Positions 23,883 through 61,349 of a DNA stretch of 64,000 nt are shown here, one piece after another. Within the stretch, counting starts at the first letter, position 1. Every line of letters starts with the position of its first letter. This DNA is from Gammaproteobacteria bacterium (GTDB lineage Bacteria; Pseudomonadota; Gammaproteobacteria; Eutrophobiales; Eutrophobiaceae), in the NCBI GenBank assembly GCA_965238225.1, contig OZ250183.1, positions 1 to 64,000 of the forward strand. The letters are read 5' to 3'. The notes beneath the pieces are model-generated. The model had not been told where the DNA came from. It did not search any database and was given only the letters and a program-made list of their open reading frames with translations. The position numbers and the translations under genes were made by a program.

Positions 23883-24452
23883 ATGCCTAAAGATTATAAA
23901 AATATCGGTCAAGATAAAAAAATCAGGTCTGATAACGGCAATAAACTAAAATATTTCTTTGCTGGTCTGGCGGTCGGGCTGTGTGTTGCGATTGCTGTCT
24001 ATTTCTATCCGCATAAACTAGAACAGCCAACAGGAACAATGCAACCTGAAATTATCATAAAAAATCCTGAACCAGCTTTAAATATACCCAACAACATTCC
24101 CTCACCCTCGTTTGATTTCTATGAAATCCTCCCCAATGTAGAAGTTAACGTATCTGAGTGGGAGACCGAAGAAAACAAAGATATTGGGAAACAAGCTAAA
24201 TCAGACAATGAGAAAACTGAAGTCTACATCTTGCAAATTGGTTCTTTCAAACAATATGATGCCGCCAATAAAGTAAAGACAAAACTTACATCCATGAGTA
24301 TCTCTGCTGAGATACAACGTGTCGTCATTAACGGTAAAGATATAAGATACCGAGTAAGGGTCGGCCCTTACGTTGAATCAGACAAACTCTCAATGATGCG
24401 CCAACAGCTTGCTAAGAATAATCTTGATTATTTACTTTTGCGGCTTAAGTAG
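23883..24452 (+). CDS. SPOR-domain cell division protein (FtsN-like)
   Basis: N-terminal TM helix, FDFYEILP, LQIGSF, YRVRVGP; typical position after argS. Confidence 0.85.
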   Translation: MPKDYKNIGQDKKIRSDNGNKLKYFFAGLAVGLCVAIAVYFYPHKLEQPTGTMQPEIIIKNPEPALNIPNNIPSPSFDFYEILPNVEVNVSEWETEENKDIGKQAKSDNEKTEVYILQIGSFKQYDAANKVKTKLTSMSISAEIQRVVINGKDIRYRVRVGPYVESDKLSMMRQQLAKNNLDYLLLRLK

Positions 24453-24721
24453 TAAATAAACGGTTAAAATTAAACCGCCTGCCTAAGTGTAAATCGAAAA
24501 TATCAGTATCTGCAATTAAAATGATAGACACCCTCCATACTCGCAGGAGCTCTAGGTATCGGACTGAGTTCTTATGAATATCTAATGGTGAATACCATCA
24601 AATCTCACTAGATTGACGGATGCAGCCTAAGCATCTGACCGGCTGAGTAGATTACTTTCTACCTGATTGCTTATCATATACCATATACGAAAATAACGTC
24701 AATGAGACTAGGAGTAAGGGA

Positions 24722-25996
24722 TTGCCTGCAAACCATAGTGAAATCTCATCCTTCATCTGGAATGTCTGTGACGATGTTCTTCGTGGACTCTTCAAACCCC
24801 ACGAATACGGTGATATCATTCTTCCTTTCACCGTCTTGAGAAGATTGGATTGTGTATTGGAAAAACACAAAGACACCGTGATTGATCTCTACAAGGAGTA
24901 TCAACCCAAGGTGGAAGATCCCACACCCATCATCCTCAATGAGATTCACACCACCTTCTTCAACCACTCCAAATATGATCTCAACCGACTAAGACAAGAT
25001 CCATCCAATGTTCAGATGAACTTCCAGAACTATCTTGGAGGATACAGTGAAAATGTGGTGAAGGTCATAGAAAATTTCCAGTTGGAGAGACCTGTTGAGA
25101 AGTTGAATAAAAGTAATCGACTTTTCCAGTTTGTTGAAAAGTTTAGTGAGATTGATCTACACCCGAATCGTGTTTCCAACCACCAGATGGGACAGATTTT
25201 TGAGGAACTGTTGAGGAAGTTCTCTGAGATGTCCAATGAAACCAGTGGAGAACACTACACCCCTCGTGATGTGGTTCGTCTATTGGTTTCAATGGTCTTC
25301 TCTGAGGATGAAGATGATTTACAAGGACAAGGAAAGGTCAGGAGTATTTTTGATCCTTGTTGTGGAACTGGTGGAATGTTGACCATTGGTAAAGAATGGG
25401 TTCGAGACAACATCAATAACAAAGTAGACTTTCGTTTATTGGGACAGGAACTCAATCCACAAACCTTCTCAATCTGTAAGTCAGATATGATGATTACAGG
25501 AGAGAACCCTGAGAATATTAAACAAGGTTCTTCACTTTCAGAAGATCGATTTCAGGGGGAACGGTTTGACTATATGGTGACCAATCCACCGTTTGGGGTG
25601 AGTTGGAAATCTGAAAAAGATTTTGTTCAGAATGAGAGTGAGAACCCACAAGGACGATTTTCAGTTGGGACTCCAAGAACTCCAGACGGTTCTCTGTTAT
25701 TCCTTCAACATATGATCTCCAAGATGGAGGACAAGGGTAGTCGAATTGGGATTGTCTTCAATGGTTCTCCTCTTTTTACAGGGGATAGTGGAAGTGGTGA
25801 ATCAGAGATTCGGAAATGGATCATAGAGAATGACTGGTTGGAGTGTATTGTCTCCCTACCTGATCGGTTGTTTTTCAACACAGGGATCTCTACATACATC
25901 TGGATCGTCTCCAACAAAAAATCAGGTAAACGACAAGGAAAGGTTCAACTGATTGATGGTTCTTCGTTCTTCAAACTTATTGAAGAAAATCATTAG
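24722..25996 (+). CDS. hsdM: type I R-M methyltransferase subunit, N-terminal part (frameshifted)
   Basis: ILPFTVLRRLD, GEHYTPR, DPCCGTGGML (motif I), NPPF (motif IV), LFFNTGI. Confidence 0.92.
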   Translation: MPANHSEISSFIWNVCDDVLRGLFKPHEYGDIILPFTVLRRLDCVLEKHKDTVIDLYKEYQPKVEDPTPIILNEIHTTFFNHSKYDLNRLRQDPSNVQMNFQNYLGGYSENVVKVIENFQLERPVEKLNKSNRLFQFVEKFSEIDLHPNRVSNHQMGQIFEELLRKFSEMSNETSGEHYTPRDVVRLLVSMVFSEDEDDLQGQGKVRSIFDPCCGTGGMLTIGKEWVRDNINNKVDFRLLGQELNPQTFSICKSDMMITGENPENIKQGSSLSEDRFQGERFDYMVTNPPFGVSWKSEKDFVQNESENPQGRFSVGTPRTPDGSLLFLQHMISKMEDKGSRIGIVFNGSPLFTGDSGSGESEIRKWIIENDWLECIVSLPDRLFFNTGISTYIWIVSNKKSGKRQGKVQLIDGSSFFKLIEENH

Positions 25997-26735
25997 GAAA
26001 CAAGAGGAAAAGAGATCTCTGATGAGGGTCGAGAATAAGATTGTTCAACATTACCTGAACTTTGAGGAGGATGAATTCTGTAAGATTTACCCTAATGAGT
26101 TTTTTGGATACACCAAGGTCACCATTGAACAACCCAAGGTTGAAAATGGAAAGGTCGTAACCGACAGACAAGGGAATCCCAAACCAGACACCAAGAAAAG
26201 AGACTATGAACGAATTCCTCTCAGTGAGGATATTGAGGAGTACTTTCAAAGAGAGGTAAAACCACATCTTCCTGACCTGCCCGCCCCATTGCCTAATTCG
26301 GATGAATATTGTACCTATGTTCTTAAATGCAGTGATGGCTCTTTTTATAAAGGGCAAACGAAGGATATACATAGAAGACTAGAAGAACATCACAAAGGAC
26401 ACGTAAGCTGGACATCTCAAAATTTACCTATAAAACTGATCCATTGGGAAGTTTTTGATACTAGGGAAAAGGCGGTTAAACGAGAACACTACTTAAAGAC
26501 AGGCAAAGGAAGAGAATGGCTTAAAAAACACTATGAAGAAGGCAAGCTGAAATCAATGGAACGGTGGCAGGCGGGTTCTTGGATGGATAGATCCAAGGAT
26601 AAAGTGGGATATGAGATCAACTTCACCAAGTATTTTTATCAGTATAAACCTCTTAGATCACTAGAAGAGATCAGTCAGGATCTCTTGAGATTGGATAAAG
26701 AGACAGAAGGGTTGATGAAGGAGATATTGGTATGA
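25953..26735 (+). CDS. hsdM: type I R-M methyltransferase C-terminal part carrying an in-frame GIY-YIG insertion
   Basis: FGYTKVTIEQP, YFQREVKPHLPD...SWMDRSKDKVGYEINFTKYFY are HsdM C-terminal motifs, interrupted by 100 aa. Confidence 0.85.
   Translation: MMVLRSSNLLKKIIRKQEEKRSLMRVENKIVQHYLNFEEDEFCKIYPNEFFGYTKVTIEQPKVENGKVVTDRQGNPKPDTKKRDYERIPLSEDIEEYFQREVKPHLPDLPAPLPNSDEYCTYVLKCSDGSFYKGQTKDIHRRLEEHHKGHVSWTSQNLPIKLIHWEVFDTREKAVKREHYLKTGKGREWLKKHYEEGKLKSMERWQAGSWMDRSKDKVGYEINFTKYFYQYKPLRSLEEISQDLLRLDKETEGLMKEILV
26276..26575 (+). mobile_element. 300-bp in-frame insertion encoding a GIY-YIG nuclease domain, bounded by imperfect inverted repeats
   Basis: TYVLKCSDGSFYKGQT..RRLEEH..G..P..L..E.F..R..A..RE..LK.GKGR; ends CCTGCCCGCC / GGCAGGCGGG; 14 GpC inside versus none in about 1.5 kb on each side. 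Confidence 0.8.
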
Positions 26736-26752
26736 ATCCCTATCCTTCATAC

Positions 26753-27461
26753 AAAGACAGTGGGGTTGAGTGGGTTGGGGAGATTCCGAGTGGGTGGAAG
26801 ATAAATCGACTTGGAATGATGGGTGTTTATTCATCAAGTGGGATTGACAAAGAAAACAATAGAAGAGAACCATTGTAAATATGGTGAACTATATGGATGT
26901 TTATGGAAATGGTTTACATTTATTAGATAGTTCAAGGAATTATATGACAGTTAGTTGTCCTTCAACAAAGGTTTTAGAACATCAAATAAAAAAAGGTGAC
27001 TTATTGTTTCTTCCAAGTTCTGAAACCGAAGTTGATTTAGGGTTATCTTCATTGATAGATGAAGAACTACCCAACACGGTATTTTTTATCATTTGGTGAG
27101 ATACCAATTTACAGTGAAATATATAAATTCTTTTAGAAAGTTTCTTTTTAATAATTACATCGTTTCAAATGAGTTTTCTAGACAAGGGAAAGGTACTACA
27201 CGACACCATTATTGGTAGGAATGATTCAGAAATATAAATGTAGTAATTCCACCTCTCCAAGAACAACAACAAATCTCCAACTACCTTGACCACAAGACCC
27301 AACAGATTGACTCTCTGATTGAGAAGACCCAACAGAAGATTGAACTACTGAAAGAACAACGAACCTCTCTGATCAATCAGGTGGTCACCAAGGGACTCAA
27401 TCCTGATGTAAAGATGAAAGACAGTGGTGTTGAGTGGATTGGGGAGATTCCGAGTGGGTGG
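26753..27461 (+). repeat. 45-bp direct repeat pair preceding hsdS TRD1 and TRD2 (26753-26797, 27417-27461)
   Basis: AAAGACAGTGG(G/T)GTTGAGTGG(G/A)TTGGGGAGATTCCGAGTGGGTGG, 43/45 identical. Confidence 0.85.
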
Positions 27462-28078
27462 GTAGTACAAAAATAAATATTTAGTATCTTACCAAGTAAT
27501 GTCAAAAGACTCTATCCAGAAGAGGTACATTTGGTTCGTCTATGTAACTATCTGATGTCTACTATGAATTCATAAGGTGTTCGGATCTTAACTCAAAGAA
27601 ATGGAAGATTTCAACCAGACATGATATTTGATAAGTTGAGAAGTTCGAAACAATGAAGTTTGATGTATCACAAAGGATTCTGAATCCCAAGATGATATAG
27701 GAAAGATACTATTGTAACTGAATGATTTGAAATTGATGTACGTATGTGGTTATCATCTAAACAAATGATGAATTGTATCCAAGAAATGTTGTGGGTGGTA
27801 TATCATTCTTCAGGTTTATTCAGTCAGTAGAAAAGGAAAGTAATTCAACAAAATTCAGATGTGATTTACTAAAGTTTGGACTTGGAAAACAGAATTGAAA
27901 ATATGTATTTCCCAGAACCAACCATCCAAGAACAACAACAAATCGTAGACTACCTCGACAAAGAAACCACCAAGATTGACTCCACCATTGAAAAGGAAAC
28001 CCAACGAATCGATCTCCTCAAAGAATACCGTCAGTCTCTGATCTCGGAAGTGGTAACTGGAAAGGTGGATGTCCGTGA

Positions 28079-28099
28079 CCTGCCTGTCGGCAGACAAGG
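28079..28099. repeat. 21-bp palindromic in-frame insertion (encodes LPVGRQG)
   Basis: CCTGCCTGTCGGCAGACAAGG imperfect hairpin; holds the only two GpC of hsdS; similar to the ends of the 300-bp insert. Confidence 0.75.
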
Positions 28100-28111
28100 T
28101 GAGGTGGTGGT

Positions 28112-31087
28112 ATGAGTCCAACCAACTACACAGAACAAGATTTTGAGGAACACATTGAGGAACAACTCACAAACAGTGAATACCACATTGTACCGCCCAC
28201 CAAATACGACAAAACCCTCTGTCTGATTCCCTCCAAACTGATCGAATTCATTAAAGAGACTCAATCCAAAATATTTGAGAAGCTAGAACTCCAATACGGT
28301 TTAGAAACAGAATCAAAACTGACCAAACGAATATCCTCCGAAATCGAATCTCGTGGGGTGATTGATGTACTTAGAAAGGGTGTCAAGGATAGAGGATGTA
28401 CTTTTCATCTGGTCTATTTCCAACCCAAATCAGGTTTGAACCCTGACCATCAAGAACTCTACAAGAAGAACAAACTGATCACGGTTAGACAGCTGAAGTA
28501 TTCCAAACACAATGAGAATTCTATTGATATGGGAATCTTCATCAATGGGATTCCTATTATGTTGTTGGAATTGAAGAACTCTCTCACTGGTCAGAATCAC
28601 AACGATGGAATCAAACAATGGAAGTTTGATCGTGACCCAAAGGAACCCCTTTTCAAATTCAAAAGGAATCTGGTCTATTTCTCAGTAGGAAATGAAAAAG
28701 TCTCAATGACCACCCGATTGAGTGGTTCCAAGACAAGGTTCCTCCCCTTCAACAAAGATATTGAGAATCCAGTCAACCCAAAAGGACACAAAACTCATTA
28801 TCTATGGGATGACATCCTACAACCCAACTTCGTATTAGATCTGATTGAGAACTTTGTCCATATCCGAACCGAAACCGATAAGGTTTACGATCCTCAGAAA
28901 AAAAAGGTTGTAGACAAAAAGAGTGAGGTGTTGATCTTCCCTCGTTTCCATCAACTCAATGTCATCCGAAAACTGAAAAGAGATGTGGTTCAGAAGGGAT
29001 CAGGACAAAACTATCTCATTCAACACACCACAGGTTCTGGTAAATCTCTCTCTATTGGTTGGTTGAGTCATCTTCTCTCTTCACTCTATCAATCACCAAC
29101 AGACACCAATCGAATCTTTAACTCTGTGATAGTGGTGACAGACAGAAGGGTTCTGGATAAACAGATCAGTAATACCATCAAACAACTGGAACAGACTAAG
29201 GGAGTGGTGAATCCAGTTGATGAAACAGCTCAACAGTTGAAGGAGTTACTTGAGTCTGGAAAGCCAATCATCATTACCACCATCCAAATGTTTCCTTTCA
29301 TTTCTGATCAAATTCCCAAAATGAAGAATAAGAAATTCGGAGTAATAATTGATGAGGTTCATTCTTCTCAAAGTGGTGAATCCTCCAAACACTTGAAGAG
29401 ATCTTTGTCAGACACTTCATTAGATGAATTTCAAGAAGGTGAAGGAAGTGGAGATCTGACAGAAGTAGATAAATTGATATTAGATGAGATCAAGTCAAGC
29501 GGGAAACAACCCAATATTTCATACTTTGGATTCAGTGGAACTCCTAAGAACAAGACCCTTGAGATCTTTGGTACTAAGACAGACAAGGGATTACAACCTT
29601 TCGATCTCTACTCAATGAAACAGAGTTTGTCTGAAGGGTTCACTCTGGATGTCCTCCAGAACTACACCACCTATAAACGATATTTCAAACTCAACAAGGT
29701 CATAGAGGAAGATCACGAACTTCCGAAGAGTCGTGTGAAGTCAATGTTGATGAGATGGGTAGACTTACATCCACATTCTATTAGAGAAAAATCCAAGATA
29801 ATCTTGGAACACTTCATCAACCATACTCAAAACAAGATTAGTGGAAAGAGTCGTGGGATGTTGGTGACTCGTTCAAGACTTCATTGTGTGAAGTACAAAT
29901 TGGAGTTTGATAAACAGATGAAGGAGAGGGGACTTCCTTTTCGTTCACTGGTAGGGTTTTCTGGGAAGGTATATGACGAAGATAGTCATCAGGAATATAC
30001 AGAGTCTTCAATGAATGGATTCCCAGAGGGTCAAACAGAAGAAAACTTAAAAGACCCCAAGTTCAGAATCCTGATTGTAAACAACAAATTCCAGACAGGG
30101 TTTGATGAACCGATGTTACACACAATGTATGTAGACAAGAAGATGGGTGGATTACAGTGTGTTCAGACCCTCTCAAGACTGAACAGAACAATGTCAGGAA
30201 AGACCGATACCTTCGTATTGGATTTTGTGAATGACCCTGATGAAGTTGGTGAGTCCTTCCAACCTTACTTCAAAGGTTCTGTTTTAACAGAAGAGACTGA
30301 CCCCAACCGACTCTATCAGATTGAACAGGAGATAAAACAGTACAACTTGTTCCAAGAAGAAACCGTCAACCTCTATGTGGATACCTTCTACCGTGAAGAT
30401 ATTCCGATGGAGGAATTACAAGGGATTCTGGATACCGTTGTTGAGGGGTGGAATGAACTGGAAGAAGAACAGGAGAACTTCCGCAGTCATATACAGAGTT
30501 TCATTAGACTCTATGGATATATTTCACAGATCATCACATTCAAAGACATCGGATTAGAGAAACTCTACATCTTCCTTCGTGGACTCAACAAGAAACTTCC
30601 AAGAAGACCTCCCACAGATCAACCTGAAATCCTTTCAACCGTTGACTTGGAATACTTCAAGATTGAGAAGAAGTACTCCGCTAAGATTGAACTGGAAGAT
30701 GAAGAGGGTGAATTACAAGGAATAAGTGAGGATGGTGTATCTTACAATGATGATGAAGAACCCGTTGACCTACTCTCAGAGATCATCCAGAAACTCAATA
30801 ACGCATTTGATGGAGATTTCTCTGATGAAGATAGAGTGAGAATTGAGAAGATCAAAGAACAGATTGACAAGGATATAGAACTTAGAATGGTGATGGAGGG
30901 GGATAATACAGATTCCAACAAGAAGGATAAGTTCAACCGTACCTTTGAAAAATTTTTGACAGATTTGGTAGATGAAAATATTGACTTCTACAATAAACTA
31001 AAAGAACCAAAGAAAAACAGATTTATGAAGGATCGTATGTATGAATTGTATGCAAAATCAATCAATGAGATGAGACCGAGTATTTAG
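28112..31087 (+). CDS. hsdR: type I R-M restriction subunit
   Basis: Nuclease D..INGIP...ELK, Walker A QHTTGSGKS, DEVH, FSGTP, FQTGFDEP, QTLSRLNR. Confidence 0.93.
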   Translation: MSPTNYTEQDFEEHIEEQLTNSEYHIVPPTKYDKTLCLIPSKLIEFIKETQSKIFEKLELQYGLETESKLTKRISSEIESRGVIDVLRKGVKDRGCTFHLVYFQPKSGLNPDHQELYKKNKLITVRQLKYSKHNENSIDMGIFINGIPIMLLELKNSLTGQNHNDGIKQWKFDRDPKEPLFKFKRNLVYFSVGNEKVSMTTRLSGSKTRFLPFNKDIENPVNPKGHKTHYLWDDILQPNFVLDLIENFVHIRTETDKVYDPQKKKVVDKKSEVLIFPRFHQLNVIRKLKRDVVQKGSGQNYLIQHTTGSGKSLSIGWLSHLLSSLYQSPTDTNRIFNSVIVVTDRRVLDKQISNTIKQLEQTKGVVNPVDETAQQLKELLESGKPIIITTIQMFPFISDQIPKMKNKKFGVIIDEVHSSQSGESSKHLKRSLSDTSLDEFQEGEGSGDLTEVDKLILDEIKSSGKQPNISYFGFSGTPKNKTLEIFGTKTDKGLQPFDLYSMKQSLSEGFTLDVLQNYTTYKRYFKLNKVIEEDHELPKSRVKSMLMRWVDLHPHSIREKSKIILEHFINHTQNKISGKSRGMLVTRSRLHCVKYKLEFDKQMKERGLPFRSLVGFSGKVYDEDSHQEYTESSMNGFPEGQTEENLKDPKFRILIVNNKFQTGFDEPMLHTMYVDKKMGGLQCVQTLSRLNRTMSGKTDTFVLDFVNDPDEVGESFQPYFKGSVLTEETDPNRLYQIEQEIKQYNLFQEETVNLYVDTFYREDIPMEELQGILDTVVEGWNELEEEQENFRSHIQSFIRLYGYISQIITFKDIGLEKLYIFLRGLNKKLPRRPPTDQPEILSTVDLEYFKIEKKYSAKIELEDEEGELQGISEDGVSYNDDEEPVDLLSEIIQKLNNAFDGDFSDEDRVRIEKIKEQIDKDIELRMVMEGDNTDSNKKDKFNRTFEKFLTDLVDENIDFYNKLKEPKKNRFMKDRMYELYAKSINEMRPSI

Positions 31088-31229
31088 TTAGCCGATCAAT
31101 CCTCAATTCGGATGACCAATGGGAATATACAATCCAAACGATTCATCGAATGATATCGACCGACGGAATTTAGTGACAATCGATTTTGGAGTCGGTAGAC
31201 CGCAACCATTCCTCTGCCGGCAGTGGCTA

Positions 31230-31266
31230 TTGGGAAGCTAAGGTTCTACCATTGAAATACGCCTGC
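31230..31266 (-). tRNA. tRNA-Gly(CCC) 5' half (truncated pseudo-tRNA)
   Basis: Minus strand GCAGGCGTATTTCAATGGTAGAACCTTAGCTTCCCAA resembles the glyU-type 5' half; similarity stops at the end of the anticodon loop. Confidence 0.7.
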
Positions 31267-31498
31267 TGGAGAAATTAGAATAAATCTAACTTCAAGCATC
31301 TAAAAAATCATCTGGCACAAATGTACTCTCTTCATAATATTGGTGTAATATTCGTTATAATATTAAATAAAACCTGCATTTTATGGTGATGATTTTTTAG
31401 CATATTGGCAATATAACCTTACGGCTAAATATTCATTAAAACTAAATCACAAGACGGAATAGGTTCGGCAATAGGGTTGAGGGAAGGATTTTAAATTT

Positions 31499-31888
31499 AT
31501 GGGAAAGGTTAGGCCGATTGTCGTTTGCATAGACGATAATCCATCAATGATGAAATTGCTTAAAAAAAGCACAGAAAATCTGGATATTGATTTAACTGTG
31601 TTTGCTTCTGCGGAAGATGCGTGGCCATATCTGGAGTCAAATGCACCGGATCTCATTATTCTCAACATCATACTGCCTAACAAAGATGGTTTGTCCTTGC
31701 TAAAAGACTTAAGAGGACTGCCAAAACATCAAAAAACTCAGGTAATCATCATAAGCTCAAAAGATTATGAACAGGATCGAGCCATCGCTAAACAGCTTGG
31801 CGCGTTAGAGTTTATCCCAAAACCCATACCAATGCAGACAATTGCGGATATTGTAGTAAAATACACCCAAGCGACCTCAAAAACCTAG
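31499..31888 (+). CDS. single-domain response regulator with Asp->Asn at the phosphoacceptor
   Basis: IDDN acidic pocket, PDLIILNIILP, ISS, FIPKP. Confidence 0.85.
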   Translation: MGKVRPIVVCIDDNPSMMKLLKKSTENLDIDLTVFASAEDAWPYLESNAPDLIILNIILPNKDGLSLLKDLRGLPKHQKTQVIIISSKDYEQDRAIAKQLGALEFIPKPIPMQTIADIVVKYTQATSKT

Positions 31889-48983: not shown

Positions 48984-49207
48984 GGCTTATAAATCAATAA
49001 TTTTCCATGTCTTTACTTATGTGCCAACTTAATATGTGCCTATTCAAGGGTATATCCAAGTTTAGCGGGATATTTAGCTGGCGCAATGCGCATAGAAAGA
49101 TCAGAATAACATCGTGTTTATGCTGCTGCGGTACAATAATGAAAGTCTAACTGCAGGGGCTTAATAGATACTTTTTTAATCTTCTGTTCCTTTTGTTTTT
49201 ATGATGC

Positions 49208-50620
49208 CTAGGATCGGCGCTTTTGCGTCCATTGCACTGCCATATTTGTTGCTCTGTTTATTTGAGAGATAGTCATGTTCTTAGCAAGATAATCTCTATT
49301 TTCTGCTCCGACCGCAAGACCATTTCCCGCTGCAATATTGAAGAATGTGTGTGCCAATACAACATCCTGAGCAATTCCTGCGCCATTGGCATACATCACC
49401 CCTAAGTTGTATTGTGCTTGAGCAAGCCCTTGTTGTGCTGCTTGTTTGTACCAGTACGCCGCCTTCCCAGCATTCTGGACAACGCCGTCTCCATGTTCAT
49501 GTATCACCCCTAAATTATATTGTGCCTTAGCATAGTCTTGTTGTGCTGCTTTTTTATACCACAGAATTGCCTGCCTGTTATTCTCGGGCACGCCTTTTCC
49601 ATGGTCATATATAAAACCTAGATTATATTGTGCCTTAGCATAGTCTTGTTGTGCTGCTTTTTTAAACCAGTGAATTGCCTGCTTGGCATCTTGAGGCACG
49701 TCTTGTCCTTTGACATACATCAATCCTAGATTGAATTGTGCTTCAGCATCTCCTTGTTGTGCTGCTTTTTTATACCACACAAATGCTTGACTGGTATCTT
49801 GAGACATACCTTTTTCTTTAGCATGCAGCAAGCCTAGATTATATTGCGCCTTGGCATCTCCTTGTTGTGCTGCTTTTTCATACCAATACACTGCTTTTTT
49901 AGTATCTTTAGGAATACCTTGTCCTCCCTGGTACATCACCCCTAGATTGTATTGTGCTTGAGCAAGCCCTTGTTGTGCTGCTTTTTTAAACCAATACGCT
50001 GCCTGCTTTTTATCTTGGGGCACGCCTTGTCCTTTGGCATATATAAATCCTAGATCGAATTGTGCAACGGCAAATCCTTGTTTGGCGGCTTCTTTAAACC
50101 ACTTAACTGCCTGACTAACATCTTGGGGCACGCCTTGTCCTTTGGCATACATCAGCCCTAAACTGTATTGTGCTTTAACATCTCCTTGTTTGGCGGCTTT
50201 TTTAAACCACTTAACTGCCTGACTAACATCTTGGGGCACGCCTTGTCCTTTGGCATACATCAGCCCTAGATTGTGTTGTGCACCAACAAGCTCTTGTTGC
50301 GCTGCTTTTTTCCACCACACAAATGCCTTTTTGTCATCTTGGGGCACGCCTTGTCCTTTGACATACATAAAACCTAAATTGTATTGTGCCTGAGCGAGCC
50401 CTTGTTGTGCTGCTTTTTCGTACCAATACGCTGCCTTTTTGTCATCCTTAGGAATACCTTTTCCATAGTGATACATCACCCCTAGATTGTGTTGTGCATA
50501 AAAATCGCCTTGTTTTGCTTGTGCTGTACATTCACGAAAGTCTATGCATTCCCCGGCATTTGCCAAGGGGGCAAGTGCCAGCAATAAAATGATATTAATA
50601 ATGTAGATAAGTTTTTTCAT
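49208..50620 (-). CDS. secreted Sel1-repeat protein, 11 repeats
   Basis: Signal peptide; 36-aa AQYNLG.MY..G.GV.QD...A..W..KAAQQG repeats. Confidence 0.95.
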   Translation of the reverse strand: MKKLIYIINIILLLALAPLANAGECIDFRECTAQAKQGDFYAQHNLGVMYHYGKGIPKDDKKAAYWYEKAAQQGLAQAQYNLGFMYVKGQGVPQDDKKAFVWWKKAAQQELVGAQHNLGLMYAKGQGVPQDVSQAVKWFKKAAKQGDVKAQYSLGLMYAKGQGVPQDVSQAVKWFKEAAKQGFAVAQFDLGFIYAKGQGVPQDKKQAAYWFKKAAQQGLAQAQYNLGVMYQGGQGIPKDTKKAVYWYEKAAQQGDAKAQYNLGLLHAKEKGMSQDTSQAFVWYKKAAQQGDAEAQFNLGLMYVKGQDVPQDAKQAIHWFKKAAQQDYAKAQYNLGFIYDHGKGVPENNRQAILWYKKAAQQDYAKAQYNLGVIHEHGDGVVQNAGKAAYWYKQAAQQGLAQAQYNLGVMYANGAGIAQDVVLAHTFFNIAAGNGLAVGAENRDYLAKNMTISQINRATNMAVQWTQKRRS

Positions 50621-50783
50621 TATGTTGTGTTTTATTCTATATCCTTTTGTGTCTTCTTAATTTACAGTAATACTTTTGGTACTATTATCTTACAGCAGGT
50701 AATAAATATAAAAAATTATGCTTATTGCTTATTTTTTGATCTCATTGCTTTGTTTGATCTTCCTTGTTTTTTCCTTCTGACCA

Positions 50784-52082
50784 TCAGTGCTTAGAGAGCC
50801 ATTGCCTTTCTAAATCTTCTGCCTGTTCTATCTGAGAGGCAGTCATGTGCTTTATAATAAGGGCTTTATGCTCTCTTCCGGCTGCAAGACCATTTGTCCC
50901 TGCAATATTGAAAAACATATGTGCCATTACAAAGTCTTGAGGCACACCTTTGCCATTTTTGTACATCACTCCTAAATTGTATTGTGCCCTAGAAAATCCT
51001 TGTTGTGCTGCTTTCTTAAACCAGTAAATTGCCTGCTTGGCATCTTGAGGCACGTCTTGTCCTTTCTGATACATCACCCCTAGATTGGATTGTGCTTCAG
51101 AAAACCCTTGTTGTGCTGCTCTTTTAAACCACTTAACTGCCTGCCTAGCATCTTTAGACACGCCTTGTCCTTTCTGATACATCACCCCTAAAATGAATTG
51201 GGCATCGGCATGCCCTTGTTGTGCTGCTTGTTTGTACCAGTGAATTGCCTGCTTGGCATCTTGAGGCACGCCTTGCCCATAGTGATGCATGAACCCTAGA
51301 TTGTATTGTGCTTTAACAAGCCCTTGTTGTGCTGCTTTTTCATACCAATACACCGCTTTTTTGGCATTCTGAACAACACCATCTCCTTTGTCATACATCA
51401 CCCCTAAAATGATTTGGGCATCGACATGCCCTTGCTGTGCTGCTTTTTTATACCAATGCGCTGCCTTTTTGTCGTCTTTAGGAATACCTTTTCCATAGTG
51501 ATACATAAGCCCTAGATTGTATTGTGCTTTAGCATGCCCTTGTTGTGCTGCTTTTTTATACCAATGCGCTGCCTTCTTGGCATTCTGGACAACACCATCT
51601 CCTTTGTCATACATCACCCCTAAGCTGTGTTGTGCATTAGCATAGTCTTGTTGTGCTGCTTTTTTATACCATAGAACTGCCTGCCTGTTATTCTCGGGCA
51701 CACCTTTTCCATGGTGATACATAAACCCTAAATTGTATTGTGCTTTAGCATGCCCTTGTTGTGCTGCTTTTTCATACCAATGCGCTGCCCTTTTATTATT
51801 TCGAGGTATGCTGTGTCCTTTGACATACATAAACCCTAAATTGTATTGTGCTTTAGCATGCCCTTGTTGTGCTGCTTTTTCATACCAATGCGCTGCCTTT
51901 TTGTCGTCTTTAGGAATACCTTTTCCATAGTGATACATAAGCCCTAGATTGTGTTGTGCATAAGCATCACCTTGCTCTGATTTTGTCTTACATTCATAAA
52001 AGTCTGCACACTCGCTGGCATTTGCCAAGGGCATAAATGCTGACAATAAAATGATACTAATGATGTAGGTGAGTTTTTTCAT
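50784..52082 (-). CDS. secreted Sel1-repeat protein, 10 repeats
   Basis: Same architecture; N-terminus and upstream DNA paralogous to 49208-50620. Confidence 0.95.
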   Translation of the reverse strand: MKKLTYIISIILLSAFMPLANASECADFYECKTKSEQGDAYAQHNLGLMYHYGKGIPKDDKKAAHWYEKAAQQGHAKAQYNLGFMYVKGHSIPRNNKRAAHWYEKAAQQGHAKAQYNLGFMYHHGKGVPENNRQAVLWYKKAAQQDYANAQHSLGVMYDKGDGVVQNAKKAAHWYKKAAQQGHAKAQYNLGLMYHYGKGIPKDDKKAAHWYKKAAQQGHVDAQIILGVMYDKGDGVVQNAKKAVYWYEKAAQQGLVKAQYNLGFMHHYGQGVPQDAKQAIHWYKQAAQQGHADAQFILGVMYQKGQGVSKDARQAVKWFKRAAQQGFSEAQSNLGVMYQKGQDVPQDAKQAIYWFKKAAQQGFSRAQYNLGVMYKNGKGVPQDFVMAHMFFNIAGTNGLAAGREHKALIIKHMTASQIEQAEDLERQWLSKH

Positions 52083-52160
52083 TTGTTGTATTTTATTCTA
52101 TATTCCTTGTGTGTCTTCTTAACGTAAAAGTCAGTGATTTAAGATGATGATTAAGCATAA

Positions 52161-58064: not shown

Positions 58065-61000
58065 TTGGATTTATCCCATAATCACAACCTAATGAACACT
58101 AAATTTTTCACCAATCAAGATCAAAATACCTTATTTAATAAGTTTAAAGGGGTTTTTGAATACAATAAAACCATTAATAATTTTGATGTTTTGGTAGGTT
58201 TCTTTCGCTCATCGGGTTATTTTAAATTACGCCCCTTATTGGAAAATGTAGAAAATATTCGTATTTTAGTAGGGATTGATGTGGATAAAATCACCGCTCA
58301 AATGCAGGCAGATGGACTGGCTTTATTCAAAGGTGATAGCGAAAAAACCATTAATAATTGGCAAAAGAAATTCAATGATGATATTCAACAAGCCAATTAT
58401 AATGCACAAACCGAGCAAGGAGTTAAGCAGTTTATAGCAGATATACAAACGGGCAAGGTGCAATTAAAAGCCCACCCAAGCCAAAATATTCACGCCAAAA
58501 TCTATATTTTTCGCCCCGATAATTTTAATCAGCATACCGCTGCCAGTGTGATTAGCGGCTCATCCAATTTGACCGATGCTGGTTTGGGCATTAAGCAAAA
58601 TGCCAATTATGAATTTAATGTATTACTCAATGATTATGAAGACATTAAATTTGCCACTGCGGAGTTTGAAAAACTGTGGGCTGAGGGTGTAGAAATACTG
58701 CCAGAAATAGCCGAAGCCAGCCTTAAACAAACCCATTTAGCAGACGACATTACTCCTTATGAATTATATTTAAAATGCTTGATTGAGTATTTTGGCAGGG
58801 CAATTGAGTTTGACCCTAATTCTATTAAAGACTTGCCTGATGATGTTAAACGATTGTCTTATCAAATGGATGCGGTTAATGAGGGTTGGGAAATGCTTGA
58901 AAAGCATAACGGCTTTTTTCTCTCCGATGTGGTGGGTTTAGGCAAAACTATGATTGCCACTTTAATTGCCAGACAATTTTATTACCATAATGGCTACCCT
59001 GATTATCGTTCTAAAATCTTGTTGGTTATTCCACCAGCACTCAAACAAAACTGGGACGTTACTTTAAAAAAATTTAAGATTGATGATGCATTTAAAACCA
59101 TCACCAACGGCAGTTTACATACAATACCCGATGCCAAAAAATACGATATGGTGATTGTAGATGAGGCACATAAATTTCGTAACGATACCGCAGAGGCTTA
59201 TACTCAATTACAAATTATTTGTAAAACCAAAACACTGGATGGCGACGACAAAAAAGTCATGCTCATCTCTGCCACGCCGCTGAATAATCGCCCTGATGAT
59301 TTATACAATCAAATCTTATTGTTTCAAGACGGTAACAACTCAACACTGGATTTTCCTTTGGCACATTTTTTCACCAAGGTCAAAAAAGAATATAAAACTA
59401 TTTCGCAATTAGCCGACAAAAAAGCAGCAGCGCAAAAAACTAGGCTACTGTATGAAGAAATTAGAGAAAGAGTGATAGTTCCGTTAATGGTCAGACGCAC
59501 TCGCACTGATTTATTAGCCAATGAACGTTACAAAAAAGATTTACAAGAACACGGTGTAAGCTTTCCAAAAAGCACGCCACCCAAACCTATTTGTTATCAA
59601 TTAGCCAATGATTTAGAGTCTTTATACGATGACACTATTAAAAAAATTGGCAACAAAAAACAAGATAAAACGGGGCTTTTGCACACTCGCTATCGGGCAT
59701 TGCATTATTTAAAACCAGAATTCAAACAAAAATACGTTAGGGCAGATTCTATTGCTGAACGGTTGGTGGGCATTATGAAATCACTGCTATTAAAAAGAAT
59801 GGACAGCAGTTTTTATGCCTTTAAACAAACTTTGGGGCGTTTTATTACATCCTCTGAAACGATGTTGACAATGATTGAAAATAACAAAATCATCATTGCC
59901 TCTGCAATCAATATTAACGATTATATTTTGAATGATAAAGAAGAAGAGTTAATGACCTTGCTGGCTGATGAAAGCCTCACAGACCCAAGCATTATTATTT
60001 ACAGCAAAGATGATTTTGAACCAGGTTTTATTGAGGGTGTCAAACATGATTATAAACTGCTCACTGCTCTTAAAGCCGATTGGGATAAAGTAACCATTGA
60101 CCCTAAGATAAATGAGTTTTTAGATCAATTGCCCGATTTTTTAGACAAACAGAAAAATCCAGAGCAAAAAATAATCATTTTCACCGAAAGCACTGATACG
60201 ATGCGTTATTTAACCGAACGAATAGATACCACCCAATACGCCAATAAAACGCTCAGTATCAACGCCAGAAATCGTAACAGCCTCAAACAAACCGTTACCG
60301 ATAATTTTGATGCCAATATTGAAGCAACAGCAAAACAAAATGATTATCAACTCATCATCACCACTGATGTTTTGGCTGAGGGTGTTGATCTGCACCGTGC
60401 TAATACGGTGATAAATTACGATACCCCGTGGAATGCCACCAAACTAATGCAACGCATAGGCAGGGTTAATCGCATTGGACAAATGGCAAGCCATATCTTT
60501 GTATATAACTTTCGCCCCACCGAGCAAATCAATGATGATATTGGTTTAGAAAAAAAGGCACTGATAAAACTACAGGCTTTTCACAGCGCCTTAGGCGAGG
60601 ATTCACAAATTTACTCAACCGATGAACAGGTTAATACCTTTGGTATTTTTGATGAAAATATTCAAGAAGAAGAAAACAAAACCATGCTTTTTTTAGAGGA
60701 GATAAGGCAATTTAAAACAGACCACCCAGAAGATTATAAACGCATAAAGGACTTACCCACTAAGGTAAGAAACGCAGTTAAAAACGCCACCCATAAAAAC
60801 GCCACTCTGGTTTTTGCCCGCACCGAGGATAAAGGCAGCAGTCGTTTTTATCTGGTTAAAGACACGGTTGAAAACTATGGTTTTATCAATACTGCCAAGT
60901 TACTTAAATGTAAAGATGGCACTCAATCAGTCACCCTACATAATCAGCATTATCCGCAAGTTCTATCAGCACTTGATGATTTCAAGGATGAAATCGAACA

Positions 61001-61346
61001 AACGATTATCAACCAAACACAACATCAACCTTTATCCGCGCTGGAGACAAAAGCCATTATATTTTTAAAATCAATCGGCAATCTACCTATTACCAACGCC
61101 GATGAGCAAACAAAAATAACACAAGCCATCAATGCCATAGAAAATAAACGCTTCCCAGCACTGCCTAGAAATATCAATCAATTAAGCAAAAACATCAAAG
61201 ACATTAAGCCGACTGTAATATTGACTAACACTTTGCAAATTATTGAAAAATTTGATGTGAATATCCATATAGAAAGTGATACCGCCCAAGAAAAACCACC
61301 TAGAAATACCCGACCAAGTATTGTAATCTCTCAGTCATACACATAA
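58065..61346 (+). CDS. phospholipase D-family nuclease fused to SNF2-type helicase (likely start ATG 58092)
   Basis: HAKIY...GSSNLT PLD motif, DVVGLGKT, DEAH, SATP, EGVDL, QRIGRVNR. Confidence 0.88.
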   Translation: MDLSHNHNLMNTKFFTNQDQNTLFNKFKGVFEYNKTINNFDVLVGFFRSSGYFKLRPLLENVENIRILVGIDVDKITAQMQADGLALFKGDSEKTINNWQKKFNDDIQQANYNAQTEQGVKQFIADIQTGKVQLKAHPSQNIHAKIYIFRPDNFNQHTAASVISGSSNLTDAGLGIKQNANYEFNVLLNDYEDIKFATAEFEKLWAEGVEILPEIAEASLKQTHLADDITPYELYLKCLIEYFGRAIEFDPNSIKDLPDDVKRLSYQMDAVNEGWEMLEKHNGFFLSDVVGLGKTMIATLIARQFYYHNGYPDYRSKILLVIPPALKQNWDVTLKKFKIDDAFKTITNGSLHTIPDAKKYDMVIVDEAHKFRNDTAEAYTQLQIICKTKTLDGDDKKVMLISATPLNNRPDDLYNQILLFQDGNNSTLDFPLAHFFTKVKKEYKTISQLADKKAAAQKTRLLYEEIRERVIVPLMVRRTRTDLLANERYKKDLQEHGVSFPKSTPPKPICYQLANDLESLYDDTIKKIGNKKQDKTGLLHTRYRALHYLKPEFKQKYVRADSIAERLVGIMKSLLLKRMDSSFYAFKQTLGRFITSSETMLTMIENNKIIIASAININDYILNDKEEELMTLLADESLTDPSIIIYSKDDFEPGFIEGVKHDYKLLTALKADWDKVTIDPKINEFLDQLPDFLDKQKNPEQKIIIFTESTDTMRYLTERIDTTQYANKTLSINARNRNSLKQTVTDNFDANIEATAKQNDYQLIITTDVLAEGVDLHRANTVINYDTPWNATKLMQRIGRVNRIGQMASHIFVYNFRPTEQINDDIGLEKKALIKLQAFHSALGEDSQIYSTDEQVNTFGIFDENIQEEENKTMLFLEEIRQFKTDHPEDYKRIKDLPTKVRNAVKNATHKNATLVFARTEDKGSSRFYLVKDTVENYGFINTAKLLKCKDGTQSVTLHNQHYPQVLSALDDFKDEIEQTIINQTQHQPLSALETKAIIFLKSIGNLPITNADEQTKITQAINAIENKRFPALPRNINQLSKNIKDIKPTVILTNTLQIIEKFDVNIHIESDTAQEKPPRNTRPSIVISQSYT

Positions 61347-61349
61347 TCT

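What the first reader, a model, noticed from the sequence alone, without database searches (positions are those of the whole stretch)
24730..31200. A ~6 kb island from which the dinucleotide GpC has been almost completely purged
Seen in the sequence (manual count): no GC dinucleotide in 24730-26278, none in 26573-28081, and about 10 in the 2976-bp hsdR. G, C, CpG, GG and CC are all present, so roughly a hundred GpC would be expected by chance in hsdR alone. The flanking host genes and the second R-M locus at 58 kb use GpC freely. The avoidance acts on DNA, not just on alanine: GGC, TGC, AGC and CGC codons and G|C codon junctions are also essentially absent. Inference: the operon evolved for a long time in a donor replicon under very strong pressure against GpC, such as a GpC-directed nuclease, toxic modification or methylase. 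GpC methylases exist (chlorovirus M.CviPI), and all AGCT/GGCC/TGCA/CGCG/GCGC sites vanish with GpC. The few residual GpC may be amelioration since arrival. I know of no described system that explains this.
Basis: partly seen in the sequence, partly recalled or inferred. Interest (0 to 1): 0.95.

Follow-up and report, generated by a model that had tools for sequence, protein, structure and literature searches.

The report
Mobile restriction genes purged of GpC
A type I restriction-modification operon in this marine bacterium belongs to a large lineage of mobile elements whose DNA contains essentially no GpC dinucleotide, so their proteins lack alanine, probably because sister elements and marine phages carry an enzyme that chemically marks every GpC.

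Summary
Window 24729-31090 has 26 GpC where 242 are expected (o/e 0.11). The rest of the 1.72 Mb genome has o/e 1.35, and no other region comes close. The avoidance affects all three codon phases.

The island is an hsdM-hsdS-hsdR operon next to the remnant of a tRNA-Gly(CCC) gene; a same-genus genome has the intact tRNA and no island.

It is not an oddity of one genome:
- 41 of the 120 closest HsdR homologues (about 985 aa) have zero alanine.
- Whole metagenome contigs of 7-13 kb have 0-12 GpC, including their integrase, resolvase, Rep genes and intergenic DNA.
- All depleted HsdRs form one deep clade, with several ameliorated offshoots.
- Two members differ at 1130 of 2979 nt, yet neither has a GpC.

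New lead: sister elements carry, directly upstream of the same operon, a CmoA plus CmoY-CmoX module. It is homologous (E 2.6e-77, SPPC motif and key Arg conserved) to the Synechococcus phage S-B43 enzyme that carboxymethylates cytosine at GC motifs. Some CmoX homologues are themselves alanine-free.

Best reading: the elements eliminated the target of GpC-directed DNA hypermodification. Why the mark is harmful remains inferred. I found no description in print.

The parts
24453..24721 (.). Non-coding stretch between the SPOR-domain gene and hsdM. GpC is normal here (11 in 24453-24728, o/e 1.06). It has no counterpart in the empty site of a same-genus genome.
24722..26729 (+). hsdM (HsdM_N + N6_Mtase, NPPF motif). 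GpC-free except in the insert. In the assembly the frame shifts near 26032. Contigs of run X23 differ there by four 1-nt deletions, so the shift may be a consensus error.
26277..26576 (+). 300-bp in-frame insertion in hsdM that encodes a GIY-YIG nuclease domain. It is the only patch of the island with normal GpC. Seawater relatives lack it (a contig joins 26272 to 26576). It has no other copy in the genome.
26732..28115 (+). hsdS. The conserved N-terminal, central and C-terminal regions are recognisable, but the frame is broken many times in the assembly. Read cover of this stretch is low and heterogeneous. It has zero GpC up to 28081.
28112..31087 (+). hsdR, intact, 991 aa (HSDR_N nuclease, SWI2/SNF2-ResIII helicase, T1R_D3-like). 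It has 4 Ala and 10 GpC.
31088..31230 (.). Downstream spacer of the inserted segment. No GpC in 31092-31201; GpC at 31202, 31216, 31220 and 31226.
31231..31270 (-). Remnant (5' part up to the anticodon loop) of tRNA-Gly(CCC). The gene is intact at the empty site of a same-genus genome (L141 1464-1537, minus strand). It marks the integration site.

Best explanation
The island is a remnant, without recombinase or backbone genes and possibly partly decayed, of a horizontally acquired type I restriction-modification operon (hsdM-hsdS-hsdR). It was inserted at a tRNA-Gly(CCC) gene.

The operon belongs to a deep, mostly marine clade of R-M operons and their carrier integrative elements. Their DNA is kept free of the dinucleotide GpC by selection on the nucleic acid. 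As a by-product their proteins have no alanine; conserved Ala positions are filled by Gly, Ser or Cys.

The most likely agent is GpC-directed cytosine hypermodification of the CmoA/CmoX/CmoY type (C5-carboxymethylation at GC motifs, then amide ligation). This is known from marine cyanophage S-B43. Here it is encoded on GpC-depleted sister elements, directly upstream of an hsdMSR operon of the same clade. DNA without GpC cannot be marked.

Why the mark would be a liability is inferred, not shown. I propose that marked DNA is attacked by modification-dependent nucleases when an element enters a new cell, while the element uses the module on other DNA such as the host chromosome.

In the present host the pressure is relaxed. 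The genome has no CmoX, no CmoA and no C5-methyltransferase. A GpC-normal GIY-YIG insertion and 12 residual GpC outside that insertion, at least 2 of them new, have accumulated.

Shown: the depletion, its level (DNA or RNA, not protein), the clade, the carrier elements, the insertion site, and the physical linkage to a CmoX homologue.
Inferred: that CmoX-type modification is the selective agent, and why.
For: 1. Depletion in all codon phases, against codon-preserving nulls. It is unique in the genome.

2. Family-wide.
- Of the 120 best HsdR homologues (64-100% identity), 41 have 0 Ala and 85 have <=1% Ala.
- GpC totals of whole loci or contigs: L132 0 in 7588 bp; L131 0 in 7287 bp; L061 2 in 9356 bp; L125 12 in 12,839 bp; L006 1 in 12,976 bp.
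- Flanking host DNA in L006, L017, L002 and L003 has o/e 0.9-1.6.

3. Carrier elements.
- L006 is a roughly 17-kb insertion that splits comM. It carries two tyrosine integrases and two resolvases.
- L125 and L080 carry a resolvase or integrase, an HTH_17 protein and Rep ORF2/G2P-like genes.
- 21 of 71 homologues of the L006 integrase have 0 Ala.

4. One clade. All 30 rows with <=30 Ala, plus 3 ameliorated rows, form a 33-row clade with SH-like support 99. The clade is also recovered with A, G, S and C masked.

5. Active maintenance.
- L080 and L125 differ at 1130 of 2979 nt and both have 0 GpC. Placing the same substitution classes at random gives 58-72 GpC (minimum 39 of 500 runs).
- Relaxed lineages L001, L059 and L008 end with 34, 73 and 127 GpC, against 50, 55 and 100 from random placement.

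6. Selection rather than a mutational signature. In 21 columns where >=60% of normal relatives have Ala, the GpC-free rows have G 83, S 67, C 34, V 17, E 11, T 9. The 110 residual GpC in 74,003 bp show no context preference.

7. CmoX link.
- L154 is a whole 15,296-bp contig with o/e 0.0-0.3. It encodes a resolvase, a CmoA homologue (TIGR00740, E 2.9e-29), orf323, a CmoY-like PP-loop domain fused to a C5-MTase domain, then hsdM, hsdS, hsdR, a T5orf172 protein, a Rep-like protein and a large serine recombinase.
- The C5-MTase domain matches PDB 8yf3_A at E 2.6e-77. The next best C5-MTase scores 59.8 bits against 263.6. SPPC and the Arg of 'GRMV' align to S95-C98 and R350.
- 8YF3 is SpCmoX. [quoted passage not shown]
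- The L154 HsdR is nearest to L060 (63%), L061 and L006, so it lies inside the GpC-free clade.
- L236-L238 share the GpC-depleted backbone with other cargo. L239 has CmoX next to hsdM/S.
- Of 120 homologues of the fusion protein, 119 have SPPC, 9 have 0 Ala and 15 have <=1% Ala.

8. Insertion site and relaxed state in the window.
Against: - Most GpC-free loci that I could inspect carry no CmoX. Many contigs are cut short, though.
- L154 and its relatives are depleted (o/e 0.0-0.3 along L154; backbone genes 0.04-0.27) but not GpC-free.
- The GC specificity of the L154 enzyme is assumed from 43% identity to SpCmoX over the domain. It was not measured.
- CmoX phages keep near-normal GpC: 0.78 in 41.9 kb of S-B43 and 0.92 in 25.2 kb of Melnitz-3. 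The mark is therefore not harmful in itself, and a further factor is needed.
- No nuclease dependent on this mark is known to me, and none was found here.
- orf323 of the module is an HTH plus MT-A70-like fold, not a nuclease.
- The window's genome and the genomes that hold L006 and L002 have no PF00145 gene. The agent is thus not resident in those hosts.
- GpC is its own reverse complement, so DNA-level and RNA-level targets cannot be told apart by strand.
Confidence: 0.5

Rival explanations
1. Evasion of a nuclease that cuts unmodified DNA at GpC or at all NGCN contexts (an R-M-like barrier with a 2-bp site, CviJI-like in its relaxed form). It would be met in recipient cells or in a transfer vehicle. 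One site would be lethal at each transfer, so only GpC-free elements keep spreading.
For: - The purge is absolute and independent of context.
- It is maintained over more than 1000 substitutions.
- It is lost in lineages that look settled in a host.
This is what single-hit killing at transfer predicts.
Against: - No prokaryotic enzyme with plain GpC cleavage is known to me (recalled), and none turned up in the elements.
- The hosts have GpC-rich chromosomes (o/e 0.9-1.8).
- No PF00145 methylase that could protect them was found in 3 of the 4 host genomes searched; in G032 only 3 matches, all short and 2 with stop codons.
Confidence: 0.15
2. Generic evasion of many barriers at once. Removing GpC deletes a large share of type II sites (AGCT, GGCC, GCGC, TGCA, GCNGC and others). 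It also prevents the GmC marks that donors' C5-methylases would leave for McrBC-like or BisI-like methyl-dependent enzymes.
For: - All four self-complementary dinucleotides are lower in the window's island than in its host: GC 0.11 vs 1.35, CG 0.44 vs 0.87, TA 0.54 vs 0.81, AT 0.91 vs 1.05.
- BisI-family and SauUSI enzymes that need m5C in GC-containing sites exist (search listing and abstracts only).
Against: - Selection per GpC would be weak, yet even functionally conserved Ala codons are gone.
- CpG is only mildly and inconsistently depleted across the elements (0.42-0.89).
- Ordinary plasmids and phages are not known to show this.
Confidence: 0.1
3. An RNA-level target. A GC-specific endoribonuclease (in the manner of the GCU-cutting toxin MqsR, recalled) spares transcripts without GC.
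For: GC is its own reverse complement, so the strand cannot decide. Genes on both strands are GpC-free.
Against: - Intergenic DNA of L132, L131, L125 and L006 is GpC-free too.
- No RNase with a plain 2-nt GC site is known to me.
- No such gene is shared by the elements.
Confidence: 0.05
4. Mutational origin. A GpC-context deaminase or methylation-driven decay (GC to GT/AC) acts on the element without selection.
For: AC/GT is somewhat higher in the islands (0.97-1.15) than in the flanks (0.68-0.88).
Against: - That rise is about what simple removal of GC from the G-followers predicts, and GA/TC rises more (1.10-1.44).
- Conserved Ala became Gly, Ser or Cys far more often than Val or Thr: 184 against 26 of 251 cells.
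- ORFs of about 1000 codons stay open across 60% protein divergence.
Confidence: 0.03
5. Artefact: a chimeric assembly, contamination or synthetic DNA.
For: - The hsdM frameshift and the hsdS breaks coincide with places where contigs of run X23 differ from the window by 1-nt deletions.
- Local consensus quality is therefore doubtful.
Against: - Both junctions are bridged by long contigs with 0 differences.
- GpC-free relatives occur in several MAGs from different phyla and in many metagenome contigs.
Confidence: 0.01

Closest known systems
Type I restriction-modification systems (HsdM/HsdS/HsdR)
   Same: Gene order and domains match: HsdM_N + N6_Mtase, an HsdS with two target-recognition halves, and an HsdR with HSDR_N nuclease and SF2 translocase.
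   Different: No described type I family is known to me to lack a dinucleotide in its genes or alanine in its proteins. In the window, hsdS (and perhaps hsdM) is not intact in the assembly.
CmoA/CmoX/CmoY cytosine hypermodification of Synechococcus phage S-B43 (PMC12783734; PDB 8YF3)
   Same: Sister elements carry cmoA, a cmoY-like ligase domain and cmoX in the same order. SPPC and the Arg350 equivalent are conserved, and the match to 8yf3_A has E 2.6e-77.
   Different: - Here CmoY and CmoX are fused.
- The genes sit on small integrative elements next to R-M cargo, not in a T4-like phage.
- The carrier DNA is depleted of the enzyme's presumed target, whereas the phage keeps GpC (o/e 0.78) and is itself modified.
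- The window has no such module.
Restriction-site (palindrome) avoidance in phages, plasmids and hosts
   Same: A short self-complementary word is counter-selected in mobile DNA (concept recalled; PMC4687349 seen in a search listing only).
   Different: Known cases concern 4-6-bp sites and cost little. Here the word has 2 bp, the purge is near total, and it removes one of the twenty amino acids from whole proteins.
M.CviPI (chlorovirus GpC C5-methyltransferase)
   Same: It is an enzyme with plain GpC specificity (recalled; also named in papers listed).
   Different: It is eukaryotic-virus encoded and makes 5mC. No link to these elements was found or tested.
tRNA-gene-targeting genomic islands
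   Same: The insertion abuts a tRNA-Gly(CCC) gene and breaks homology at the 3' side of the anticodon loop.
   Different: No integrase, no restored tRNA and no direct repeat remain in the window. Only the cargo operon is left.

Membership tests
Type I R-M system | HsdM with an N6-adenine methyltransferase domain and the HsdM N-terminal domain | tested here: met
   PF02384 E 8.4e-60 and PF12161 E 1.3e-24 on 24722-25996. The C-terminus continues in 26034-26276 and 26577-26729.
Type I R-M system | An intact HsdS specificity subunit | tested here: inconclusive
   The conserved regions align to 11 HsdS homologues, but the frame is broken repeatedly. Contigs of run X23 differ by 1-nt deletions and cover is low or absent in 27654-27914. 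Real decay cannot be told apart from consensus error.
Type I R-M system | HsdR with an N-terminal nuclease domain and an SF2 helicase/translocase | tested here: met
   PF04313, PF18766, PF04851 and PF22679 on the open 991-aa frame.
Type I R-M system | Restriction and methylation activity | not testable with these tools
   Needs a methylome and phage or plasmid restriction assays.
CmoA/CmoX/CmoY GC-motif hypermodification (on sister element L154) | CmoX hallmarks: the SPPC catalytic motif and the Arg that binds the carboxymethyl group (R350 of SpCmoX) | tested here: met
   'DGSPPCS' and 'CGRMV' align to residues 95-98 and 350 of 8yf3_A. The criteria are taken from PMC12783734.
CmoA/CmoX/CmoY GC-motif hypermodification (on sister element L154) | A Cx-SAM synthase CmoA encoded alongside | tested here: inconclusive
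   The best NCBIfam hit is TIGR00740 CmoA, E 2.9e-29 over model positions 20-239 of 239. Its 102 bits are below the equivalog cut-off of 193. Identity to the S-B43 cmoA region is 44%.
CmoA/CmoX/CmoY GC-motif hypermodification (on sister element L154) | Specificity for GC and formation of 5cxmC or its amide | not testable with these tools
   Needs LC-MS and nanopore analysis of DNA from cells that express the module.
CmoA/CmoX/CmoY GC-motif hypermodification (in the window itself) | Presence of the module in the window or its genome | tested here: not met
   PF00145 has 0 matches in the complete genome. tblastn with the L154 CmoYX and CmoA proteins finds nothing at E 1e-6.
tRNA-targeting integrative element | Insertion at a tRNA gene, with an empty site in relatives | tested here: met
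   G002 has the two flanks 90 bp apart, and that gap holds tRNA-Gly(CCC). The window keeps only the 5' part at 31231-31270.
tRNA-targeting integrative element | An integrase and att repeats in the element | tested here: not met
   There is no recombinase ORF between 24453 and 31230. The ends resemble no other locus. Integrases are present on relatives L006 and L080.
Recognition-site avoidance | Depletion of a short word beyond codon-preserving expectation | tested here: met
Recognition-site avoidance | A cognate site-specific enzyme in the same cell | tested here: not met
   The window's genome has no C5-methyltransferase. It has three PF01555 genes of unknown specificity.

The most novel reading that the evidence does not exclude
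A guild of marine integrative elements uses the absence of one dinucleotide as its self mark. The elements (or their kin) carry a GpC-directed hypermodification module that marks every other DNA in the cell: the host chromosome, rival elements and phages. Their own DNA has no GpC, stays chemically naive and passes modification-dependent barriers. The price is a proteome built from 19 amino acids. This would be a 2-bp self/non-self code and a natural, long-running experiment in alanine-free enzymes, including a 1000-aa helicase-nuclease.
Probability: 0.3. Interest if true: 0.95.

Novelty: categorically new. Interest (0 to 1): 0.9.

Why it matters
- **Scale of the effect.** It shows that selection on a 2-bp DNA word can be strong and lasting enough to remove an amino acid from large, working enzyme families. 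Dozens of HsdR proteins of about 985 aa have no alanine, as do integrases, methyltransferases and CmoX homologues. That is of direct interest for protein evolution and for reduced-alphabet protein design.
- **Ecology of a new DNA mark.** It points to a role for the newly described GC-motif cytosine hypermodification beyond phage camouflage. It also predicts that nucleases directed at that mark exist.
- **A search key.** A compositional signature (GpC-free stretches, alanine-free ORFs) can pull a whole class of mobile defence elements out of metagenomes without any homology search.
- **A practical use.** GpC-free genes are blind to GpC methyltransferase footprinting and to many restriction enzymes.

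Tried and rejected
- **Viral origin of the operon.** Single-protein scans of viral contigs with the window's HsdR and with the L006 integrase found no relative. A scan with the integrase alignment found one distant hit of 29% (L234) with ordinary GpC. tblastn against cultured plasmids and phages gave only hits below 60% identity.
- **More integrase-bearing elements in species-representative genomes.** A match was found in 2 of 401 genomes sampled from the class of L006's genome and in 1 of 68 of its family. Both counts include L006's own genome. No further context was gained.
- **A GpC-cutting restriction enzyme in the CmoX module.** orf323 (P0316) sits between cmoA and cmoYX. It has 115 relatives in the representative library. 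It folds with mean pLDDT 91 into an N-terminal HTH plus a domain that Foldseek matches to MT-A70-type methyltransferases (MTA1, METTL3-METTL14; E about 1e-7). It is not a nuclease. A profile search of PDB sequences gave only HTH hits.
- **Unknown proteins of the elements.** PADLOC, PHROGs and Pfam gave nothing useful for L125 578 aa and 390 aa, L061 561 aa, L006 212 aa and 193 aa, L236 341 aa and L238 673 aa. The atlas had no usable hit for the L125 protein. For L061 561 aa it gave only a structural resemblance to a putative family A polymerase palm protein.
- **Host GpC methylation as the cause.** No PF00145 gene was found in the window's genome, nor in the genomes that hold L006 and L002. 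The genome that holds L017 has three matches, all short, two with stop codons inside.
- **Deaminase signature.** Rejected.
- **Context preference among residual GpC.** None found.
- **Conserved element ends.** The window's two non-coding ends match no other locus.
- **Compositional attraction as the cause of the single clade.** The same 33-row clade returns with A, G, S and C masked. Both trees are FastTree only. No AU test or mixture model was run.
- **Other GpC-poor places in the genome.** The 596-bp GpC-free gap is a simple repeat. The region 796-812 kb has o/e 0.71 and was not studied.
- **Host name.** The listing of cluster members gave no names.
- **Literature.** Six searches of the library found nothing on GpC-free or alanine-free mobile elements or R-M genes. 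Of PMC12783734 I read the outline and abstract, the found passages, and sections 12 and 13. None of these parts mentions GpC-depleted carriers or type I R-M neighbours.
- **Read cover.** Parts of the stretch without cover in the laid runs (27654-27914 in all four runs) are not interpreted.


Full report
**1. The observation.**
A 1-kb sliding window shows GpC observed/expected of 0.00-0.39 from 24.5 to 31.0 kb and 1.05-1.78 everywhere else in the window. Exact counts:

| Segment | GpC observed | GpC expected | o/e |
|---|---|---|---|
| 24729-26278 | 0 | 65.2 | 0 |
| 26279-26572 | 14 | 11.6 | 1.2 |
| 26573-28081 | 0 | 48.0 | 0 |
| hsdR 28112-31087 | 10 | 114.9 | 0.087 |
| whole island 24729-31090 | 26 | 242.1 | 0.107 |
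| flank 1-24400 | 1316 | 997.0 | 1.32 |
| flank 31400-64000 | 1827 | 1231.5 | 1.48 |
| R-M-like locus 58065-63719 | 267 | 185.8 | 1.44 |

The genome that holds the window is one contig of 1,722,049 bp with 93,001 GpC (o/e 1.35). The four longest GpC-free gaps and the twelve lowest 2-kb windows all lie in the island. The next longest gap is a trivial (ACAACTAT)n repeat.

The avoidance is not a side effect of amino-acid content. Recoding the same HsdR protein with host codon usage gives 76.0 +- 7.2 GpC (minimum 55 of 1000 runs), against 10 observed. NGC codons are almost absent. G|C codon junctions number 4, against 39.4 +- 4.4 when the gene's own synonymous codons are shuffled (minimum 23 of 1000). 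So the target is the nucleic acid, in all three codon phases.

Of the other dinucleotides, CpG (0.44) and TpA (0.54) are lower than in the host. GA/TC is raised to 1.44.

**2. Anatomy in the window.**
The island is hsdM-hsdS-hsdR.
- The hsdM ORF 24722-25996 (424 aa) has one alanine. Its SAM-binding motif reads DPCCGTGG.
- In the assembly the hsdM frame shifts near 26032.
- An exactly 300-bp in-frame insertion (26277-26576) encodes a GIY-YIG domain. It is the one patch with normal GpC. It has no other copy in the genome. A seawater metagenome contig joins 26272 to 26576 without it.
- hsdS (26732-28115) keeps its conserved regions but is broken many times.
- hsdR is intact (991 aa, 4 Ala).

Contigs of run X23, which holds 0.83 of the stretch's sampled words and may be the source sample, bridge both junctions with 0 differences (24000-25245 and 30467-31800). 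They differ from the window by several 1-nt deletions at 25974-26037 and 26852-27207, and they cover hsdS thinly. The island is therefore not a chimera. The frameshifts in hsdM and hsdS may be consensus errors, or heterogeneity within the culture, rather than decay.

**3. Insertion site.**
A 12-kb query found both flanks in 10 same-genus genomes. In G002 the flanks lie 90 bp apart, and the gap holds tRNA-Gly(CCC) on the minus strand. In the window only the 5' part of that tRNA remains (31231-31270). Homology breaks at the 3' side of the anticodon loop, and no tRNA is called there. The inserted segment is about 24453-31230. It has no recombinase gene, and its ends match nothing else that I hold.

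**4. It is a family trait.**
- The 120 best HsdR homologues (64-100% identity, mostly metagenomic, some labelled Marinimicrobia) include 41 with no alanine at all in about 985 residues, 67 with <=5, and 85 with <=1%.
- In species-representative genomes, GpC-poor operons sit in GpC-normal chromosomes of Neomarinimicrobiota, a Flavobacteriales MAG, Candidatus Thiodubiliella and a Nitrosomonadaceae MAG.
- Metagenome contigs are GpC-free from end to end: L132 has 0 in 7588 bp, L131 0 in 7287 bp, L061 2 in 9356 bp, L062 3 in 4367 bp, L080 8 in 6942 bp and L125 12 in 12,839 bp.
- These stretches include intergenic DNA and genes on both strands.
- CpG is only variably depleted across the elements (0.42-0.89), so the effect is specific to GpC.

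**5. Carrier elements.**
L006 has one GpC in 12,976 bp. It is a roughly 17-kb insertion that splits a comM-like gene. It carries an HTH gene, hsdM, a DUF5655/PDDEXK gene, hsdS, hsdR, two tyrosine integrases, two resolvases and a type II R-M remnant.

L125 and L080 carry a resolvase or an Arm-type tyrosine integrase, an HTH_17 protein and Rep ORF2/G2P-like genes.

Of 71 homologues of the 674-aa L006 integrase, 21 have no alanine. The trait therefore belongs to mobile-element backbones, not only to R-M genes.

Genes that were inserted later have ordinary or only mildly reduced GpC: Fic (o/e 0.95-1.37) and an IS200-like transposase (0.44-0.74) in L001/L002/L004, and GIY-YIG in the window.

**6. 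Evolution.**
In a FastTree of 120 HsdRs, every GpC-free or GpC-low row falls into one 33-row clade (SH-like 99). Its sister is a group of Poribacteria rows with mildly reduced GpC (o/e 0.70-0.88). At least 7 changes of state are needed. The same clade returns when A, G, S and C are masked, so it is not a compositional artefact.

Within the clade, divergence reaches about 41% identity.

The state is actively maintained. L080 and L125 differ at 1130 of 2979 aligned nt and neither has a GpC. Random placement of the same substitution classes yields 58-72 GpC (minimum 39 of 500 runs). Lineages such as L001, L059 and L008 end with 34, 73 and 127 GpC, against 50, 55 and 100 from random placement, so in them the constraint is relaxed.

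The 110 residual GpC in 74,003 bp show no context bias.

At the 21 columns where normal relatives keep Ala, GpC-free rows have Gly 83, Ser 67, Cys 34, Val 17, Glu 11 and Thr 9. That is functional mimicry, not the Val/Thr spectrum of C-to-T decay.

Two of the window's residual GpC (28492 and 29228) read A and T in marine relatives. This fits amelioration since arrival.

**7. A candidate agent.**
An alignment-based scan of viral contigs returned L154, a whole 15,296-bp contig with GpC o/e 0.0-0.3. Its genes run as one tight array:
- a resolvase;
- a CmoA homologue (TIGR00740, E 2.9e-29, below the equivalog cut-off);
- orf323;
- a 662-aa fusion of a PP-loop, asparagine-synthase-like domain with a C5-cytosine methyltransferase domain;
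- hsdM, hsdS and hsdR;
- a T5orf172 protein;
- then a Rep-like gene and a large serine recombinase.

The methyltransferase domain matches PDB 8yf3_A over its full length (E 2.6e-77, 263.6 bits; the next C5-methyltransferase scores 59.8). It has SPPC and the Arg of GRMV at the positions of S95-C98 and R350.

8YF3 is SpCmoX of the marine Synechococcus phage S-B43. According to the passages and sections that I read in PMC12783734:
- SpCmoX transfers a carboxymethyl group from Cx-SAM (made by CmoA) to C5 of cytosine.
- It needs a GC motif.
- Its product is ligated to glycine by CmoY.
- 5,615 candidate CmoX sequences exist in phage data.

The phage has the same gene order, cmoA-cmoY-cmoX.

The L154 HsdR is nearest to L060, L061 and L006, so it lies inside the GpC-free clade. 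Relatives L236-L238 share the depleted backbone with other cargo in the same slot. L239 has CmoX next to hsdM/S, in a host with normal GpC.

Among 120 homologues of the fusion protein, 119 have SPPC. Nine have no alanine at all: seven fusions of 674-692 aa and two single-domain proteins. Fifteen have <=1% Ala. So genes for an enzyme that presumably acts on GpC are themselves often GpC-free.

CmoX phages are not depleted: 0.78 and 0.92 in the parts I fetched.

**8. Reading.**
The best-supported account is that this lineage of elements eliminated the target of a GpC-directed activity. The only plain-GpC activity known from this habitat is CmoX-type hypermodification, and it is physically linked to the lineage.

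Because modified phages are viable, the mark alone cannot be the harm. I infer that marked DNA is vulnerable to modification-dependent nucleases at transfer, and that elements carrying the module aim it at other DNA. Nothing here shows this, and I give the whole chain about 0.5.

In the window's host the agent is absent. There is no PF00145 gene and no CmoX or CmoA match. That agrees with the relaxed state of this copy.

Rivals:
- A GpC-cutting nuclease.
- Generic multi-enzyme site avoidance together with evasion of methyl-dependent enzymes.
- A GC-specific RNase.
- A mutational process.
- An artefact.

The last two are disfavoured. The first three are not excluded.

**9. Novelty.**
Six full-text searches found no description of GpC-free or alanine-free mobile elements or R-M genes. 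The parts of the CmoX paper that I read do not mention depleted carriers. The library lacks most subscription journals, and supplements were closed, so this is absence in what I could search, not proof.

Recognition-site avoidance is a known principle. A near-total purge of a dinucleotide, with loss of an amino acid from whole enzyme families and a link to GC-motif hypermodification, is to my knowledge new.

Noticed in passing
window 26277-26576: An exactly 300-bp in-frame insertion in hsdM that encodes a small GIY-YIG nuclease domain. Its GpC is normal. It is single-copy in the genome and absent from seawater relatives. How such a domain inserts in frame was not studied.
   Followed up: partly
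window 58065-63719: A second defence-like locus with normal GpC (o/e 1.44). It has a 1093-aa protein with a PLD-type nuclease domain plus an SNF2/helicase, followed by a 789-aa Eco57I-type N6-methyltransferase.
   Followed up: partly
window 49000-52100: CpG o/e drops to 0.30-0.49 while GpC stays at 1.6-1.8. The stretch encodes two Sel1-repeat proteins (470 and 432 aa), so repeat composition is the likely cause.
   Followed up: partly
G000:C1:1432205-1432801 (outside the window): About 600 bp of tandem (ACAACTAT)n repeat. It is the longest GpC-free gap outside the island.
   Followed up: partly
G000:C1:796000-812000 (outside the window): The lowest GpC outside the island. Individual 2-kb windows reach 0.57-0.65 and the whole region is 0.71, at 43% G+C. 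It may be another foreign segment.
   Followed up: no
L006 3215-3793 and 20881-21756: The 17-kb GpC-free element of a Flavobacteriales MAG splits a comM-like (Mg-chelatase family) gene. Insertion into comM is known for other elements (recalled).
   Followed up: partly
L001 6582-7646 and 9305-9742; L002 6224-7309 and 9251-9697; L004 3-314: A Fic-domain gene (o/e 0.95-1.37; L001, L002) sits between hsdM and hsdS and an IS200-type Y1 transposase gene (o/e 0.44-0.74; also L004) lies between hsdS and hsdR in otherwise GpC-poor operons. They show that later insertions are tolerated in some hosts.
   Followed up: partly
L154 1849-2820 (P0316): A conserved 323-aa protein lies between cmoA and cmoY-cmoX. 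It has an N-terminal HTH plus an MT-A70-like fold (pLDDT 91) and no obvious DPPW-type motif. It has 115 relatives in the representative library, and 3 of the 47 full-length ones have no alanine. Its role in the modification module is unknown.
   Followed up: partly
L007, L009, L013, L018, L026 (Poribacteria MAGs): The sister group of the GpC-free HsdR clade has mildly reduced GpC in hsdR (o/e 0.70-0.88) and only 32-44 Ala. It may be an intermediate or a partly ameliorated state.
   Followed up: no
genome G000 as a whole: tblastn with the L154 CmoA homologue at E 1e-6 finds nothing in the window's complete genome. The bacterium may lack the tRNA cmo5U enzyme CmoA. This was not checked with a family model.
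   Followed up: no
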